Positions 22,481 to 29,947 of a stretch of DNA of 64,000 nucleotides are shown piece by piece. Position 1 is the first letter of the stretch, and every line of letters starts with the position of its first letter. The stretch lies in NCBI GenBank assembly GCA_964447765.1, contig CAYUTO010000004.1, positions 22,561-86,560 on the forward strand, written 5' to 3'. The translations under genes were made by a program, and so were the position numbers. Below the pieces are notes generated by a model. It was given only the letters and a program-made list of their open reading frames with translations. It was not told the origin of the DNA and did no database searches. The DNA comes from an uncultured Gammaproteobacteria bacterium (GTDB lineage: Bacteria; Patescibacteriota; Patescibacteriia; Magasanikbacterales; UBA922).

Positions 22481-23191
22481 TTATGCCGTAACTGTCTCTC
22501 CGGCTGACGTATCAGCTACTGGTTCGAGAACTGGTGCTTCCACTACTGACTCTTTGATTTCTTCAATAGTAATACTTCCGTCATTCGTAGAAATATAGAG
22601 GAGTCCATTTCGTGCTCCAGGAACCGCTCCTTTAATGAAGAGTTCATGTGCCTCAGGATGTACTTCAACCACTTCCAAATTTTTGACAGTTACCTGATCA
22701 GCTCCCATATGTCCTCCCATGCGCATGTTCTTGAAGACTCTCTGTACACCACCAGCTCCAATACTTCCAGGCATACGAAGGTTGTCTTTGTGTCCATGAC
22801 TTGCAGGACCTCCGGCAAATCCATGGCGTTTTACTACACCTTGGAAACCTTTTCCTTTTGACATACCAGTAACCTGCACTTTCTCGCCTGCAGCAAAAAT
22901 ACTTGCATTGAATTGATCACCTTTCTTAAGATTCTCTGATTCAGCTCTAAAATCCTTGAGGAATCGAACAGTTGCCTGTGGATCATTGTGTGCAGAAATT
23001 CCTTTGAGGTGACCTTTTTCAGATTTGCTCAAGCGGAATAATTTTTGACTTCCAAAGCCAATCTGAACTGCGCCTGGTTTTACCTGGGTTACTACACATG
23101 GACCTGCCTGAACACGAGTAACAGGAACTACCGTTCCATCAGCTCGAAACACCTGTGTCATTCCAATTTTTTTACCAATGATGAATTTCAT
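22481..23191 (-). CDS. rplC: 50S ribosomal protein L3
   Basis: MKFIIGKKIGMTQVF...; conserved L3 segments. Confidence 0.9.
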   Translation of the reverse strand: MKFIIGKKIGMTQVFRADGTVVPVTRVQAGPCVVTQVKPGAVQIGFGSQKLFRLSKSEKGHLKGISAHNDPQATVRFLKDFRAESENLKKGDQFNASIFAAGEKVQVTGMSKGKGFQGVVKRHGFAGGPASHGHKDNLRMPGSIGAGGVQRVFKNMRMGGHMGADQVTVKNLEVVEVHPEAHELFIKGAVPGARNGLLYISTNDGSITIEEIKESVVEAPVLEPVADTSAGETVTA

Positions 23192-23239
23192 ACCAGTTGT
23201 TGATTTTGTGAAAACTTCCTAGTTATTTCTATTAAAAAA

Positions 23240-23296
23240 CTAGAAGTAGCGGCGCCACCTAATACACATGTGTATAAGTGACAATGCTGCTTCTAG
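23240..23296 (-). promoter_or_regulatory. Attenuator-like hairpin plus U-tract in the rplC leader
   Basis: 57-nt imperfect inverted repeat ctagaagtagcg...tgctgcttctag, followed on the minus strand by UUUUUUAAU about 45 nt upstream of the rplC ATG. Confidence 0.45.
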
Positions 23297-23445
23297 CCTC
23301 TAAAAACCATAGTACCTATGGAGTTATCTAAGGCGTTGTAGTGAATATGTAATGAATACTAACCTCATGTATACATCTTGTCTCGGTCCAGATGTTTTCC
23401 TTTTATATGGATCTTATCTGTGCAAAACCAATGTATGTGGGCTCT

Positions 23446-23474
23446 AGTGTAACCTATCTTTATACATCTGTCAA
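23446..23474 (-). promoter_or_regulatory. Sigma70-like promoter inside the rpsJ-rplC spacer
   Basis: On the minus strand: TTGACA, 17 nt spacer, TACACT. The TTGACAGATGT motif is shared with the 16S promoter. Confidence 0.5.
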
Positions 23475-23565
23475 GGGCTACTTCGAGCCGTAAAATACGT
23501 AATTTTTTTGTGAATGTTGACCTCTCGTTTACAGTCCCTAGAAAAGGGTAATTACACCCTTATAG

Positions 23566-23910
23566 TTACATCATTTTGATCTCCACATCAACTCCACTTG
23601 GCAAATTAAGGTTCATGAGAGCATCAATTGCCTTAGGACTTGGAGAATGGATATCAAGCAAACGTTTGTGCGTGCGCATTTCAAACTGTTCTTGTGCAGT
23701 CTTGTGCACAAATGTTGCACGGTTCACACTATACTTCTGAATGTGCGTTGGAAGTGGAACTGGACCTACTACTTTAGCGCCATTGCGCTCTGCAGTATCA
23801 ATAATAGTCTTTGTAGCACCATCAATGATCTTATGATCATACGCTTTAATTTTTACTCGAACGCGTGGACCGACTTCTTCTGTTTTTTTTACGGGTGTTG
23901 GAGTGACCAT
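23566..23910 (-). CDS. rpsJ: 30S ribosomal protein S10
   Basis: [40 protein letters not shown], canonical S10. Confidence 0.9.
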
Positions 23911-23921
23911 ATAAATGAGCT

Positions 23922-23961
23922 AATAAAAAGGGCAACCCAGCCCTCCGATCGGAGGGCTGGG
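23922..23961 (-). terminator. Intrinsic terminator after tuf
   Basis: Hairpin cccagccctccgatcggagggctggg followed on the minus strand by uugcccuuuuua. Confidence 0.7.
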
Positions 23962-23971
23962 TATATTAAAG

Positions 23972-25162
23972 TTAGACAAGAATCTTAGTTACAACTCCTG
24001 CTCCTACAGTTCGTCCACCTTCGCGGATAGCAAATCGCATTTGCTCTTCGATAGCTACAGGAACAATAAGTTTGATTTTAACATTAACCGTATCTCCAGG
24101 CATTACCATTTCAGTTCCCTCAGGAAGGGTTACTTCTCCAGTAACGTCAGTAGTTCGGATATAGAACTGAGGTTTGTATCCATTGAAGAAAGGTTTGTGT
24201 CGTCCACCTTCTTCTTTGGTAAGTGCATATACTTCAGCTTCTACTTCAGTATGAGGTTTGATAGTACCAATCTTTGCAAGTACCATTCCGCGCTCTACTT
24301 CTTCTTTCTTGGTACCACGAAGAAGGATACCAGCGTTGTCTCCAGCCTGCCCTTGTCCCAATGATTTGTTGAACATTTCAACTCCAGTTACGGTAGTCTT
24401 CATAGGTTCAGCGCGCATACCAACAATTTCGATTTCGTCACCGATTTTGATGATACCACGTTCAATACGACCAGTAACTACAGTTCCACGTCCTTCAATT
24501 GAGAACACATCTTCTACGGGCATGAAGAAATTCTTATCAAGATCACGAATTGGATCTGGAATATAATCATCAAGAGTCTTCAAGAGATCAAGAATTGGCT
24601 TAGCTGCTTCAGGATCATTTGGGTTCTCAAGCGCTTTGAGTGATGAACCACGAACAATTGGAGTAGTGTCTCCAGGGAAATTGTATTTCTTCAAAAGATC
24701 ACGAACTTCCTCTTCAACGAGGTCGATAAGTTCAGGATCACTTACCTGATCAACTTTGTTGAGATATACCACGATATAAGGTACACCTACTTGTCTTGCA
24801 AGCAAGATGTGCTCACGTGTCTGAGGCATCGGACCGTCTGCTGCTGAAACTACGAGAATAGCTCCATCCATCTGAGCCGCACCAGTGATCATGTTTTTAA
24901 CATAATCAGCGTGACCTGGACAATCTACGTGTGCATAGTGTCGTTTTTCAGTTTCGTATTCTACGTGTGCAGTAGCAATCGTGATCCCACGAGCTTTTTC
25001 TTCAGGAGCTGCATCGATTTCATCAACACCTTTTGATTGAGCTGTCAAACCATGAGCTGCGGCAACCTTAAGGATTGCAGCGGTCGTAGTAGTCTTACCG
25101 TGGTCAACGTGACCAATGGTTCCCACATTCACATGCGGTTTGTTTCTTAGAAATTCTGCCAT
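23972..25162 (-). CDS. tuf: Elongation factor Tu
   Basis: [17 protein letters not shown] and NKVD G-motifs; 396 aa. Confidence 0.95.
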
Positions 25163-25347: not shown

Positions 25348-25977
25348 TTACGAAGCAGGCTCTTCAAAGAACACCACCTCATCATCCTCCCCATCAAGAC
25401 CTGGTTCATTTTCAAGCAATGGCTGAGCACTAATTTCTTCAGGAGATACAGACGAAAAATTAGAAGTAAAAGATGGTTTCGTAAAGCCAACAGTGGGCGC
25501 AAGTGGCTGTTCCGGCACCGGAACATACGTATGTATCGGCTCACTAGCATCGTCTTCTTCTGGTAAATCTGTAGGAGTATCTTGTTTTACCAGAGCACTT
25601 CTCCTGTCAGTAATGAGATCACTCACTCGATGCCAATCAGTGTGATGAGCATAATCCTCTTCAAATGGATCAGACAATGGTTCATCTACAAGCTGATCTT
25701 CGATAAGCGCGGCCTGCTTGTCTTGGGAATTTAACTCTTGATAGGATCTCCAGATCGCAATATCACGATTAATCTTATCAATCAATTCTCGCTCTGACAT
25801 CTCCTCAAGTAAATATTCATCAAAGTCACTATGAGAAACCTTATCAGAAGCCCTAAATTCTTCGTACTGATCAAAGGGTAATACAACCAAATCATGAGCT
25901 TCGGTTGGGTCATGTATAATAACGGTATCCCCTGTTTTTTTGGAAAGCGAAAGTATCCGGTTGAGTCTATCAATCAT
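25348..25977 (-). CDS. Hypothetical acidic protein (209 aa)
   Basis: Uninterrupted ORF with a plausible upstream promoter (TTGACA, 18 nt, TATAAT at 26026..26055); no recognisable domain. Confidence 0.5.
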   Translation of the reverse strand: MIDRLNRILSLSKKTGDTVIIHDPTEAHDLVVLPFDQYEEFRASDKVSHSDFDEYLLEEMSERELIDKINRDIAIWRSYQELNSQDKQAALIEDQLVDEPLSDPFEEDYAHHTDWHRVSDLITDRRSALVKQDTPTDLPEEDDASEPIHTYVPVPEQPLAPTVGFTKPSFTSNFSSVSPEEISAQPLLENEPGLDGEDDEVVFFEEPAS

Positions 25978-26195: not shown

Positions 26196-26364
26196 CTGTT
26201 CTTTTTTTGGTAAGAGATGTACTGCATGGAAAACTAGTCCGATGAGGAGCAAGTGCTGGTGAATTATTCACCACCCTTTCTCCTGACCGGACTTCTCTGT
26301 CCACCAGGTAGATCGCGAGTGCGATCTAGCGTCTTTTACCGTCACAACAAGGAGTATATCAGCC

Positions 26365-26613
26365 ATGCTGAACACCACCGAACAACGAATCCGTGCCCAC
26401 ATCACCGTTCGCGAGGAGAATATCCGTAAGACGCAGCCGAAGATAAGAGCTGTACCCATGGAGCCCGCAGACGAGATGTCTCCGACCAACAAGCAGGAAG
26501 AGGTGTCCGCATCGACGAAGCCCAACTCCCCGAAAAGGAACAAGTACATACTCATGTACATTCTACTCACCGTGGGAGCTGGTGTCGCAGTAGGTCTTCT
26601 GTTCATGCGCTGA
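26365..26613 (+). CDS. Small tail-anchored membrane protein (82 aa) in a G+C-rich islet
   Basis: Strong SD AAGGAG 8 nt upstream of the ATG. Hydrophilic N-terminus and a single C-terminal TM helix (YILMYILLTVGAGVAVGLLF). Strong hairpin terminator downstream. Confidence 0.5.
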   Translation: MLNTTEQRIRAHITVREENIRKTQPKIRAVPMEPADEMSPTNKQEEVSASTKPNSPKRNKYILMYILLTVGAGVAVGLLFMR

Positions 26614-26616
26614 GCT

Positions 26617-26708
26617 TCGTCCGATCTTAGGCCCCCTTTCCTTCGGGAAGGGGGCCTCTCGGACGAAAAAAACAAACACAAAAAGAAAACGCGTAACTGC
26701 GTTTTTTT
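26617..26708 (+). terminator. Two successive hairpins after the small ORF
   Basis: GC-rich 49-nt hairpin cgtccga...ggccccctttccttcgggaagggggcc...tcggacg, then acgcgtaactgcgt followed by ttttttt. Confidence 0.6.
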
Positions 26709-27107: not shown

Positions 27108-28613
<1,506 letters not shown>

Positions 28614-29070: not shown

Positions 29071-29118
29071 GTACCATGACAAGTCCCAATTGTTCACATA
29101 TTGGGGATAAGTCTGGAA

Positions 29119-29220
29119 TAGTCAAAAAGTCGAAAGCTAAAAGTCGAAAGTCGAGAGAGAAAAAACCTACATTACAACAAGACTTTATGGACTTTTGACT
29201 TTAAGACTTTATAGACTTTC
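29119..29220. repeat. Palindromic element with AAAGTC/GACTTT hexamer-array arms (family C), copy 1
   Basis: agtcaaaaagtcgaaagctaaaagtcgaaagtcgagag, spacer, then gactttatggacttttgactttaagactttatagacttt. Homologous to 38962..39056. Confidence 0.6.
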
Positions 29221-29947
29221 CTTTCCTCCATTCAGCGATTTTTTTATGATCCCCACTGAGAAGCACCTCGGGCACCTTCCACCCCTTAAAATCAACTGGT
29301 TTCGTATACTGTGGATACTCAACCTCAATTTCTCCCTCTCCTATACCACCTTTTTCCTTTTGCGTTTTGACATTATTAAACGTTTCATCAGTAAGAGATT
29401 CCGCATTACCTAAAACTCCTGGCACCAGTCGCGACACCGCCTCAACAATTGCTAAAGCTCCCAATTCACCACCCGCCAAAACATATGGACCAATAGAGAT
29501 TTCCTCATCAATCATATGATCTACTACGCGCTGGTCCACGCCTTCATACCGACCACAAATCAAAATAAGTTCATCAAGCTTTGCCCATGATGTGGCAGTT
29601 GATTGATCGAACTGTCTTCCACGTGGAGAAAGCAATACCGTACGTTTTTTCTGCCCAACAGTTCCCGTGGCCAGACGTTTTAATTTGGTAAGTCCAGGAG
29701 CTTTTTTGAAAGGCAATCCGTCAATTGACATAAGCGCCTCATAAATCGGATCAGGTTTCATAAGCATTCCCGCTCCCCCACCACAGAGAGTATCATCCAC
29801 CGTCTTATGTTTGTCATGCGTAAAATCACGAATATACAAAGCCCGAACGTCAATCAATTTCTTTTTTTGCGCACGACCAAGAATCGTCTCATTAGCATAT
29901 GACGTAATAATTTTTGGAAAAAGCGTGAGGACTGAAAATCGAATCAT
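29201..29947 (-). CDS. trmD: tRNA (guanine37-N1)-methyltransferase TrmD
   Basis: SPOUT/TrmD motifs: FSVLTLFP..., LLSPRGRQFDQ, ILICGRYEGVDQRV and GPYVLAGGELGAL. Confidence 0.85.
   Translation of the reverse strand: MIRFSVLTLFPKIITSYANETILGRAQKKKLIDVRALYIRDFTHDKHKTVDDTLCGGGAGMLMKPDPIYEALMSIDGLPFKKAPGLTKLKRLATGTVGQKKRTVLLSPRGRQFDQSTATSWAKLDELILICGRYEGVDQRVVDHMIDEEISIGPYVLAGGELGALAIVEAVSRLVPGVLGNAESLTDETFNNVKTQKEKGGIGEGEIEVEYPQYTKPVDFKGWKVPEVLLSGDHKKIAEWRKGKSIKS

What the first reader, a model, noticed from the sequence alone, without database searches (positions are those of the whole stretch)
23192..23565. 374-nt non-coding spacer between rpsJ and rplC carrying a promoter and an attenuator-like hairpin
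rpsJ and rplC are normally adjacent. Here the spacer contains, on the minus strand, a good sigma70-type promoter (TTGACA, 17 nt, TACACT) and then a leader of about 190 nt. The leader ends in a 57-nt imperfect hairpin followed by UUUUUUAAU, about 45 nt before the rplC start codon. This mirrors the logic of the E. coli S10 leader, where L4 feedback acts through a transcription attenuator, but here it is placed after rpsJ. It would be a candidate autogenous-control element for the L3-L4-L23-L2 block.
Basis: partly seen in the sequence, partly recalled or inferred. Interest (0 to 1): 0.5.

Follow-up and report, generated by a model that had tools for sequence, protein, structure and literature searches.

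The report
Conserved attenuator leader before rplC
The long gap between two ribosomal-protein genes in this candidate-phylum (Patescibacteria) bacterium holds a conserved, folded RNA leader with its own promoter and a built-in transcription stop signal, so it is very probably a previously undescribed control switch for the main ribosomal-protein operon, though what flips the switch is unknown.

Summary
The window is from a Candidatus Magasanikiibacteriota (Patescibacteria) genome. rpsJ and rplC are 374 nt apart, against 32 nt in E. coli.

On the gene strand the spacer holds:
- a TTGACA-17-TACACT promoter
- a leader of about 205 nt
- a 57-nt hairpin followed by U6, ending 42 nt before the rplC ATG

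This is a conserved RNA, not a chance feature. The same promoter, P1-P2 hairpin, P3 and P4 terminator occur in 29 related species genomes and 37 metagenome contigs, always between rpsJ and rplC on the sense strand. P2 carries an invariant AAGA/AAAC internal loop. P2 is 99% paired and P4 88% paired, both with compensatory changes. P1 covaries (permutation p<5e-5).

In 8 of 52 leaders the U-tract ends 2-8 nt before the rplC ATG. rplC must therefore be transcribed through the terminator, which makes this an attenuating leader rather than a separate sRNA gene.

It matches no Rfam family and is not homologous to the E. coli S10 leader. I found no leader peptide, no conserved antiterminator and no rRNA mimicry.

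Autogenous control by a ribosomal protein is the most likely mechanism, but that step is inferred and the effector is unknown. I rate it a new member of a known kind, of moderate interest.

The parts
23566..23910 (-). rpsJ (ribosomal protein S10). It lies upstream of the element and directly follows tuf and its terminator.
   Evidence: ORF listing. NCBIfam rpsJ equivalog, 140.9 bits.
23544..23561 (-). Small hairpin AAGGGU-GUAAUU-ACCCUU followed by UUCU, just after the rpsJ stop codon. It is a weak terminator-like element and is not conserved beyond the closest relative.
   Evidence: Fold of the spacer. Spacer comparison: present in L002, absent where the -35 box lies 6-19 nt after the rpsJ stop.
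23446..23474 (-). Sigma-70-type promoter: -35 TTGACA (23474-23469), 17-nt spacer, -10 TACACT (23451-23446). The likely transcription start is near 23439.
   Evidence: Promoter scan. The boxes are conserved with exactly 17-nt spacing in 30/30 leaders, while the spacer sequence between them varies. Also present in 35/37 metagenome copies.
23371..23436 (-). P1-P2 long 5' hairpin. P1a is AUACAUU/GAUGUAU, P1b is GUUUUG/CGAGAC, and they flank P2.
   Evidence: Minimum-free-energy folds. P1 cognate versus non-cognate flank duplex energies are -12.2 versus -7.4 kcal/mol, permutation p<5e-5. All 13 P1 pairs show changes on both sides.
23389..23420 (-). P2 core. The lower stem is CAGAU/AUCUG. The invariant 4x4 internal loop is AAGA (23415-23412) opposite AAAC (23397-23394). 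The upper stem is UCC/GGA, topped by a variable cap. This is the most conserved part and the candidate effector-binding site.
   Evidence: Invariant columns. Both stems are about 99% paired with compensatory changes in 54 leaders. The strict structural motif gives 27 hits in spacers against 3 elsewhere in 1.39 Mb counting both strands. A variant, GGAG-AAAGAUCN...NGAAAAC-CUCC, occurs in more distant Patescibacteria.
23363..23366 (-). Conserved (G)GAGG(U) immediately 3' of P1. It looks like a Shine-Dalgarno sequence, in a genome whose genes lack Shine-Dalgarno sequences.
   Evidence: A GAGG-like motif is found in this linker in 50/52 leaders, although in a few the first match counted lies inside P1. 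Shine-Dalgarno-like motifs occur upstream of 5/50 genes against 7/50 for internal control positions, although the 16S rRNA ends in CACCUCCUUU.
23347..23358 (-). Single-stranded block UAUUCAUUACAU. It is conserved in about half of the leaders and its role is unknown.
   Evidence: Alignments. Present in 25/52 leaders. Not repeated in the rRNA leader.
23296..23334 (-). P3. GCCUU pairs with AGAGGC and encloses a small hairpin CCAUAG-GUA-CUAUGG. Its 3' strand runs straight into the terminator stem.
   Evidence: A GCC partner for the invariant GGC is found in 51/52 leaders. Compensatory variants are GCCAU/AUGGC, GCCAA/UUGGC and GCCUG/CAGGC.
23240..23296 (-). P4, the 57-nt imperfect hairpin that forms the intrinsic-terminator stem. 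The base CUAGA/UCUAG, preceded by GG, is invariant in sequence. The upper part covaries.
   Evidence: RNAalifold. 88.2% of cells are paired against 54% or less with slid partners, and 12 pairs show changes on both sides. Model R2 scores the sense strand at 98.8 bits and the antisense strand at 20.4 bits.
23234..23239 (-). U6 tract directly after P4, giving an intrinsic-terminator tail of UUUUUUAAU.
   Evidence: Sequence. At least 5 U are invariant in all leaders.
22481..23191 (-). rplC (L3), the first gene of the downstream ribosomal-protein cluster (rplD, rplW, rplB, rpsS, rplV...). This is the regulated target.
   Evidence: ORF listing. NCBIfam L3_bact at 214.2 bits and rplD_bact at 198.6 bits.

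Best explanation
The spacer encodes a cis-acting 5' leader RNA of about 205 nt for the rplC-led ribosomal-protein operon.

Transcription starts at a conserved sigma-70-type promoter inside the rpsJ-rplC spacer. The nascent RNA folds into three parts:
- a long P1-P2 hairpin whose invariant AAGA/AAAC internal loop is the likely recognition site
- a short P3 hairpin
- P4, a long hairpin followed by a U-tract, which is an intrinsic terminator

Because rplC and the genes behind it lie downstream of P4, their expression depends on read-through. The element is therefore a transcription attenuator. Where P4 abuts the start codon it probably also influences translation initiation.

The most likely control is autogenous. 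When a ribosomal protein of the operon is in excess over rRNA, it binds the leader (the P2 loop and/or the invariant P4 base) and increases termination. L4 is the candidate by precedent, and L3 is the first gene downstream. This would work like L4 on the E. coli S10 leader.

Shown here: the promoter, the fold, the terminator, their conservation and covariation, the exclusive linkage to rplC, and the need for read-through.
Inferred: that termination is regulated at all, and that the effector is a ribosomal protein.
For: 1. Conservation. In all 79 Patescibacteria loci that carry both genes, the rpsJ-rplC spacer is 143-695 nt, median about 325. In E. coli it is 32 nt.

2. Location. Both leader domains are found by covariance models in 29 species-representative genomes plus the window. 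Each genome has one copy, on the sense strand, inside the spacer, and nowhere else in about 700 kb (R1, R2).

3. A scan that does not depend on rplC. Searching metagenomes for the P2 sequence pattern gave 61 matches. 37 lie next to rpsJ and/or rplC, nearly all with the promoter and terminator blocks. The other 24 lie mostly inside long ORFs (about 20 in an ORF of more than 100 codons, 4 not). They lack the upper stem and score low, so they are chance matches.

4. Structure.
- P2 is about 99% paired with compensatory changes.
- The whole 5' domain is 75.7% paired against 47.5% or less for slid controls, with 0/500 shuffles as high.
- P1 cognate flanks pair far better than non-cognate flanks, p<5e-5.
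- P3 shows compensatory variants.
- P4 is 88% paired against 54% or less for slid controls, with 12 covarying pairs.
- The sense-strand fold has z = -3.08 and the antisense z = -0.92.

5. Promoter. TTGACA, 17 nt, TAnnnT is conserved in 30/30 leaders.

6. Read-through is required. The U-tract ends 2-8 nt before the rplC ATG in 8 of 52 unique leaders, which leaves no room for another promoter.

7. Sequence invariance. The P2 loop, the P4 base GGCUAGA/UUCUAG and the U-tract are invariant while neighbouring stems covary. This suggests specific recognition beyond simple hairpin formation.

8. Precedent (established knowledge). L4 acts on the E. coli S10 leader. An L4 leader candidate lies upstream of rplC in Archaeoglobi (PMC7247131).
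Against: - There is no expression or termination data.
- No effector was identified.
- No conserved antiterminator structure competes with P4.
- No significant resemblance to E. coli rRNA was found. The best PWM match to 23S is at positions 995/1025 with p of about 0.03 and lies in helix 41. From memory, that region is a binding site for L20, which is not encoded in this operon. Model R1 finds nothing in the E. coli rrn operon.
- The organism's own 23S rRNA was not available in any fetched locus.
- P4 looks like a strong terminator. If it is efficient, something must actively promote read-through.
- rpsJ also sits about 25 nt behind a strong terminator. Terminator hairpins in front of genes may therefore be a general, possibly unregulated, habit of this genome.
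Confidence: 0.5

Rival explanations
1. A regulated attenuator whose effector is not a ribosomal protein of the operon. The leader would act as a riboswitch-like sensor of a small molecule such as a nucleotide or alarmone. Alternatively it would sense free 30S subunits through its conserved GGAGG, pairing with the otherwise unused anti-Shine-Dalgarno sequence. A third option is another trans factor such as the Nus proteins or S10.
For: - The conserved core is small and sits in an internal loop flanked by covarying helices, as in aptamers.
- The invariant P4 base could belong to a tertiary fold.
- (G)GAGG(U) is found in 50/52 leaders, although genes here do not use Shine-Dalgarno sequences and the 16S rRNA keeps CACCUCCUUU.
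- No rRNA mimicry was found.
Against: - The motif is found only in front of rplC. It never precedes other genes in the rplC-independent metagenome scan or elsewhere in the 64-kb window. That pattern is typical of ribosomal-protein leaders and atypical of metabolite riboswitches.
- No Rfam riboswitch family matches.
- No conserved alternative pairing (antiterminator) was found.
- No boxA-like copy occurs in the rRNA leader.
Confidence: 0.15
2. A constitutive, unregulated arrangement. An internal promoter boosts the rplC cluster. The 5' hairpin stabilises the mRNA. A leaky terminator or processing hairpin sets a fixed expression ratio between tuf-rpsJ and the downstream genes. No feedback is involved.
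For: - rpsJ also lies about 25 nt behind a strong terminator hairpin with no promoter in between.
- A crude scan finds a terminator-like hairpin plus U-run upstream of rplC in 70 of the 80 spacers examined.
- No antiterminator and no effector were found.
Against: - The P2 internal loop and the P4 base are invariant across lineages whose RplC is only 55-65% identical, while adjacent stems covary. A mere stabiliser or terminator would not need this.
- The P2 loop persists in a second leader type whose stems and terminator are otherwise different.
Confidence: 0.2
3. An independent small RNA gene with its own promoter and terminator and a trans-acting or housekeeping function. It would merely be lodged between rpsJ and rplC.
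For: - The promoter plus a structured RNA of about 205 nt plus a strong terminator has the shape of an sRNA gene.
- Prematurely terminated leaders can act as sRNAs (general knowledge).
Against: - The U-tract ends 2-8 nt before the rplC ATG in 8/52 leaders. rplC has no promoter of its own and must be transcribed through the element.
- Position and orientation relative to rplC are fixed in all 29 + 37 copies.
- It matches no known RNA gene family. Rfam gives no match to any of its families, which include 6S, SRP and RNase P RNA, and ARAGORN finds no tmRNA.
Confidence: 0.1

Closest known systems
E. coli S10 operon leader (L4-mediated, NusA-dependent transcription attenuation plus translational control)
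   Same: Both are 5' leaders of the S10-type ribosomal-protein gene block. Both are roughly 170-200 nt with several hairpins. In both, the last hairpin is an intrinsic terminator a few tens of nucleotides before the first regulated gene. Neither has an obvious antiterminator, and in E. coli the protein enhances termination.
   Different: - The E. coli leader lies upstream of rpsJ. Here rpsJ is outside the unit and coupled to tuf, and the leader precedes rplC.
- There is no sequence or structure similarity. Model R1 finds nothing in the MG1655 S10 leader, and the folds differ.
- The E. coli leader is confined to Gammaproteobacteria (established knowledge).
- L4 binding was not tested here.
L4 ribosomal-leader candidate of Archaeoglobi (Eckert and Weinberg 2020, PMC7247131)
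   Same: A conserved structured RNA directly upstream of rplC-rplD-rplW-rplB, proposed to be an autoregulatory leader.
   Different: It is archaeal. There is no Rfam match between the two. Its ligand was assigned only by precedent. The element here has an explicit bacterial promoter and an intrinsic terminator.
Terminator-containing ribosomal-protein leaders of Firmicutes (L10, L13, L19, L20, L21 leaders in Rfam)
   Same: The same kind of device: a structured leader followed by an intrinsic terminator upstream of ribosomal-protein genes. The encoded protein is thought to bind an rRNA-like site.
   Different: They control different operons and have different folds. None matches here, even at E-values up to 10. 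No rRNA mimicry could be shown for this leader.

Membership tests
E. coli S10 leader (L4 attenuator) | Located immediately upstream of rpsJ, at the head of the S10 operon | tested here: not met
   The element lies downstream of rpsJ and upstream of rplC. rpsJ follows tuf and its terminator.
E. coli S10 leader (L4 attenuator) | Homologous hairpins HD/HE (sequence and structure) | tested here: not met
   Model R1, run without filters on the MG1655 rpsJ upstream region, gives no hit in the leader. The fold of the E. coli leader is unrelated. Rfam 15 has no S10-leader model, so Rfam could not test this.
E. coli S10 leader (L4 attenuator) | L4 binding and L4/NusA-stimulated termination | not testable with these tools
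   This needs in vitro transcription and binding assays.
Ribosomal-protein autoregulatory leader (generic kind) | A conserved structured RNA in the 5' UTR of a ribosomal-protein operon, on the sense strand, exclusively linked to that operon | tested here: met
   one copy per genome, always between rpsJ and rplC, on the sense strand, with covariation.
Ribosomal-protein autoregulatory leader (generic kind) | Mimicry of the effector protein's rRNA binding site | tested here: inconclusive
   Only E. coli rRNA and the organism's own 16S could be compared. The best PWM match has p of about 0.03. The covariance model finds nothing in the E. coli rrn operon. The AAGAUC/GAAAAC core is not found in a comparable context. 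The organism's own 23S is not in any fetched locus.
Intrinsic (Rho-independent) terminator / attenuator | A stable hairpin with a G+C-containing base, directly followed by a U-tract, located between a promoter and the gene | tested here: met
   P4 is 23296-23240, followed by U6 at 23239-23234. It is conserved with covariation. The promoter lies upstream and rplC downstream.
Intrinsic (Rho-independent) terminator / attenuator | Actual premature termination, modulated by a signal | not testable with these tools
   No transcriptome data are available.
Known riboswitch and other Rfam cis-regulatory families | A match to a curated covariance model | tested here: not met
   No family reaches its gathering score in the spacer. 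At E-values up to 10 there are only four weak, implausible hits.
Known housekeeping RNAs (tRNA, tmRNA and the RNA gene families in Rfam) | A match to Rfam or ARAGORN models | tested here: not met
   The window contains only 16S rRNA and one tRNA-Pro, both elsewhere.
Leader-peptide (ribosome-mediated) attenuator | A conserved short ORF with a start codon after a Shine-Dalgarno sequence, overlapping the control hairpins | tested here: not met
   No sense-strand ORF of 20 aa or more. The candidate mini-ORFs after GGAGG mostly start at AUU or AUA, and they differ in frame, length and sequence between leaders.

The most novel reading that the evidence does not exclude
The leader is not a ribosomal-protein operator. 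Instead it would be a direct sensor that sets production of the main ribosomal-protein operon in Patescibacteria. One form would be a riboswitch-like aptamer built around the AAGA/AAAC loop that binds a small molecule such as a nucleotide or alarmone. The other would be a sensor of free 30S subunits, acting through the conserved GGAGG in a lineage that keeps the anti-Shine-Dalgarno sequence but does not use Shine-Dalgarno sequences for initiation. The P2 loop persists in at least two leader types across distant Patescibacteria, which would make this an ancient, lineage-wide control of ribosome synthesis in ultra-small bacteria.
Probability: 0.12. Interest if true: 0.8.

Novelty: new member of a known kind. 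Interest (0 to 1): 0.5.

Why it matters
Almost nothing is known about gene regulation in the Candidate Phyla Radiation (Patescibacteria). None of its members is genetically tractable and most have never been grown in pure culture.

This element is a clear, statistically supported cis-regulatory RNA in that group. It sits in front of the roughly 20-30-gene ribosomal-protein cluster, so it bears on how ultra-small cells balance ribosome synthesis.

It shows three things:
- In this lineage the classical S10 operon is split, with rpsJ coupled to tuf.
- An S10-leader-like attenuator logic has arisen independently in front of rplC.
- A small internal-loop motif (AAGAUC/GAAAAC) is shared by leaders of distant Patescibacteria.

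It is a ready candidate for a new Rfam family. It also gives a defined RNA for binding tests with recombinant L3, L4 and other proteins, without any need to culture the organism.

Tried and rejected
- **Known RNA families.** Rfam at gathering thresholds on the whole window, and at E-values up to 10 on the spacer, gave nothing credible. ARAGORN found no tRNA or tmRNA in the spacer.
- **Hidden protein gene or leader peptide.** There is no sense-strand ORF of 20 aa or more. Mini-ORFs after GGAGG are not conserved.
- **Independent sRNA gene.** Rejected as the main reading, because the U-tract abuts the rplC ATG in 8/52 leaders.
- **rRNA mimicry.**
  - By eye, the leader's AGAUAAG...GAAAACAUCU resembles E. 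coli 23S helix 97, AGAUAAGUGCUGAAAGCAUCU. The shared bases are mostly the covarying P2 stem, which differs in type-II leaders. The PWM score there is within shuffle range.
  - The best PWM match, at 23S 995/1025, has p of about 0.03. From memory it lies in helix 41, near the L20 site, and L20 is not encoded in this operon.
  - GGCUUAGAAGCAGCC in 23S helix 43 resembles the window's P4 base, but only GGCUAGA is conserved among leaders.
  - Model R1 finds nothing in the E. coli rrn operon.
  - No 23S rRNA is present in the window or in the 13 largest related loci, so mimicry of the organism's own rRNA could not be tested.
- **boxA/Nus-type element.** UAUUCAUUACAU is not enriched in the window (17 matches against 11 +/- 3 expected) and is absent from the 16S leader.
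- **Conserved antiterminator.** Folding each leader's prefix shows only P3 (GCC/GGC) touching the 5' strand of P4. Longer alternative pairings are clade-specific.
- **P0 pairing of GAGG with the 5' GCC.** The GCC lies in the discriminator or transcription-start region, so it is probably not in the RNA.
- **K-turn reading of the P2 loop.** Rejected by inspection, because the strand opposite the bulge lacks the required GA.
- **Homology to the E. coli S10 leader.** None found.
- **Full-length covariance model.** Two domain models were used instead.
- **A loose regex scan for the P2 motif.** Useless in these AT-rich genomes. A structure-aware scan replaced it.

Full report
**What is in the window**

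On the minus strand the order is:
- tuf (23972-25162)
- a strong terminator-like hairpin (23962-23935)
- rpsJ (23566-23910)
- a 374-nt spacer (23192-23565)
- rplC (22481-23191), then rplD, rplW, rplB, rpsS, rplV

NCBIfam confirms S10, L3, L4 and EF-Tu. The spacer has no sense-strand ORF of 20 aa or more. It contains no tRNA or tmRNA and no Rfam family, even at E-values up to 10. In E. coli MG1655 the rpsJ-rplC gap is 32 nt, so the spacer is unusually long.

The closest relatives by RplC are Candidatus Magasanikbacteria/Magasanikiibacteriota metagenome-assembled genomes, up to 98% identical. In the NCBI lineage this phylum sits in the Patescibacteria group, Parcubacteria group.

**The observation**

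- TTGACA (23474-23469), 17 nt, TACACT (23451-23446)
- a 57-nt imperfect hairpin at 23296-23240
- U6 at 23239-23234, followed by AAU
- 42 nt from the U-tract to the rplC ATG

The sense strand of the spacer folds better than dinucleotide shuffles (z = -3.08, 0/100 as good). The antisense strand does not (z = -0.92). A single promoter-consensus match is not significant on its own: 7 were found against 6.6 expected in 3 kb. The case rests on conservation.

**Conservation**

In all 79 Patescibacteria loci that carry both genes, the rpsJ-rplC spacer is 143-695 nt, median about 325.

In the Magasanikiibacteriota-like subset, the spacers share the same blocks in the same order:
- the promoter, with exactly 17-nt spacing in 30/30 leaders while the spacer sequence between the boxes varies
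- CAGAUAAGAUCC [variable cap] GGAAAACAUCUG
- (G)GAGG(U)
- often UCAUUACAU
- GCC...[hairpin]...AGGC
- GGCUAGAAG...CUUCUAG followed by U5-7

The distance from the -10 box to the end of the U-tract is 179-291 nt, median 222.

**Structure**

RNAalifold and explicit pair counts give the following.

*P2.* The lower stem is CAGAU/AUCUG and the upper stem is UCC/GGA. They surround an invariant 4x4 loop, AAGA/AAAC. In 23 sequences the stems are 97-99% paired, and in 54 sequences about 99%. Compensatory changes include CAAAU/AUUUG, UAGAU/AUCUA and UCU/AGA.

*P1.* This long stem closes P2 and differs completely in sequence between lineages. An alignment-free test shows that the 5' and 3' flanks of the same leader pair much better than flanks taken from different leaders: -12.2 against -7.4 kcal/mol, with 0 of 20,000 permutations as good. 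In a fixed register all 13 P1 pairs show changes on both sides. The whole 5' domain is 75.7% paired, against 47.5% or less for slid controls and 0/500 shuffles.

*P3.* GCC pairs with the invariant GGC in 51/52 leaders. Compensatory extensions include GCCAU/AUGGC, GCCAA/UUGGC and GCCUG/CAGGC.

*P4.* The terminator stem is 88% paired, against 54% or less when the partners are slid. Twelve pairs change on both sides. Its first five base pairs (CUAGA/UCUAG), the preceding GG and the U-tract never vary.

**Specificity**

I built two domain models instead: R1 for P1-P2 and R2 for the linker, P3 and P4.

Across the window, 80 rplC loci and an E. coli rrn operon (about 700 kb), both models hit once per genome. 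The hits are on the sense strand, inside the spacer, in the window and 29 genomes. R2 scores the sense strand far above the antisense strand, for example 98.8 against 20.4 bits in the window.

Those loci had all been fetched through rplC, so I also ran a scan that ignores gene context. I searched the metagenome collection for CAGATAAGATYN{6,36}RAAAACATCTG and got 61 matches.
- 37 lie next to rpsJ and/or rplC, nearly all with the promoter, GGCTAGA and TCTAGTTTT blocks.
- The other 24 lie mostly inside long ORFs (about 20 in an ORF of more than 100 codons, 4 not). Only 1 of the 24 has a fully paired upper stem, and R1 scores them low. These are chance matches.

The structured motif is therefore tied exclusively to the position in front of rplC.

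**A wider family**

Some more distant Patescibacteria carry a second leader type (L036, L038, L047, L052, L058, L064). It has the same loop in a different stem: GGAG-AAAGAUCN [cap] NGAAAAC-CUCC. A small hairpin and a different terminator follow.

The AAGAUC/GAAAAC loop is thus the deepest-conserved feature and the best candidate for the effector-binding site. A crude scan finds a hairpin plus U-run within 160 nt of the rplC ATG in 70 of the 80 spacers examined (79 loci plus the window). On the antisense strand it finds one anywhere in 35 of 80. This is rough, because the genomes are AT-rich.

**Leader or separate RNA gene?**

In 8 of 52 unique leaders the U-tract ends only 2-8 nt before the rplC ATG. 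That leaves no room for another promoter. Where the -35 box lies 6-19 nt after the rpsJ stop, there is also no terminator after rpsJ.

rplC and the cluster behind it must therefore be transcribed through P4. P4 is by position an attenuator, and the RNA is a 5' leader. This does not exclude that the terminated product has a function of its own.

**Mechanism**

I looked for what controls read-through and found none of the following:
- a conserved antiterminator; before the 3' strand of P4 is made, only P3 touches the 5' strand of P4
- a conserved leader peptide
- a boxA-like repeat shared with the 16S leader

I found no convincing rRNA mimicry:
- The best PWM match to E. coli 23S has p of about 0.03. 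From memory it lies near an L20 site, and L20 is not encoded in this operon.
- A resemblance to helix 97 that I saw by eye involves mainly the covarying stem bases.
- R1 finds nothing in the E. coli rrn operon.
- The organism's own 23S is not in the window or in the related loci searched, so this test is incomplete.

The lack of an antiterminator, together with sequence-invariant elements in P2 and at the base of the terminator, fits the E. coli S10 precedent. There, L4 with NusA enhances termination at a leader hairpin (established knowledge). It also fits the L4 leader candidate upstream of rplC in Archaeoglobi (PMC7247131).

I therefore favour autogenous feedback by a protein of the operon. 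I mark this step as inferred.

The element is not homologous to the E. coli S10 leader. Rfam has no model for that leader.

**An oddity**

The genome keeps the anti-Shine-Dalgarno sequence in 16S, yet its genes lack Shine-Dalgarno sequences: 5/50 upstream regions against 7/50 control positions. Nevertheless a (G)GAGG(U) motif is found right after P1 in 50/52 leaders, though in a few of them the first match counted lies inside P1. In type-II leaders GGAG/CUCC forms the P2 stem. This leaves open a less conventional sensor, such as 30S or anti-Shine-Dalgarno sensing or a small ligand.

**Verdict**

This is a real, conserved, structured attenuator-type leader of the rplC-led ribosomal-protein operon in Magasanikiibacteriota. 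Its core motif is shared more widely in Patescibacteria. It is absent from Rfam 15, and my literature searches did not turn it up.

The kind of element is known, but this family is new and its effector is unknown. I rate interest at about 0.5.

Noticed in passing
window 23935-23962 (-), with the rpsJ ATG at 23910: tuf is followed by a strong terminator-like hairpin (12 bp, 9 G-C, then U5). It ends about 25 nt before the rpsJ start codon, with no promoter-like site in between. rpsJ therefore also appears to be expressed by read-through of a terminator.
   Followed up: partly
window about 26250-26700: A GC-rich island (52-54% GC against about 38% around it) lies between the 16S gene (27109-28612, -) and the ORF at 25348-25977. 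It has no Rfam match even at E-values up to 1. The only ORF there is an implausible 153-aa one. It may be an unrecognised structured RNA.
   Followed up: partly
window 27109-28612 (-); also L107, L124 and L133: The 16S rRNA gene lies a few kb upstream of tuf-rpsJ, with no 23S rRNA anywhere in the 64-kb window. The same 16S-without-23S neighbourhood is seen in three related metagenome contigs.
   Followed up: partly
window about 29071-29043 (-), compared with 23475-23446 (-): The candidate 16S promoter (TTGACAGATGT..., 17-nt spacing, TACTAT) shares the string CTTGACAGATGT with the rplC-leader promoter. This may be a common extended promoter signature for ribosome-component genes, or it may be chance.
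   Followed up: no
whole window (ORFs of 150 aa or more) and the 16S 3' end near 27109: The 16S rRNA ends in the canonical anti-Shine-Dalgarno sequence GAUCACCUCCUUUCU. Yet Shine-Dalgarno-like motifs are no more frequent upstream of genes (5/50) than at internal control positions (7/50). This is an organism that does not use Shine-Dalgarno sequences, like Bacteroidetes.
   Followed up: partly
window about 29100-29240 (-): Short direct repeats (AAAGTC-type and CTTTCGACTTTT-type) lie just upstream of the candidate rRNA promoter.
   Followed up: no
window 25348-25977 (-): A 209-aa acidic ORF lies between the 16S region and tuf and matches no NCBIfam family. A near-consensus promoter (TTGACG-17-TATAAT, 25298-25270) lies between it and tuf.
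   Followed up: no
window 23201-23222 (-), between the U-tract and rplC: In the window's own subclade (L001-L009), the stretch after the terminator contains CUAGGAAG. This is a near-copy of the 5' strand of P4 (CUAGAAG). In read-through transcripts it could pair with the 3' strand of P4. It is absent from leaders whose U-tract abuts the ATG.
   Followed up: no
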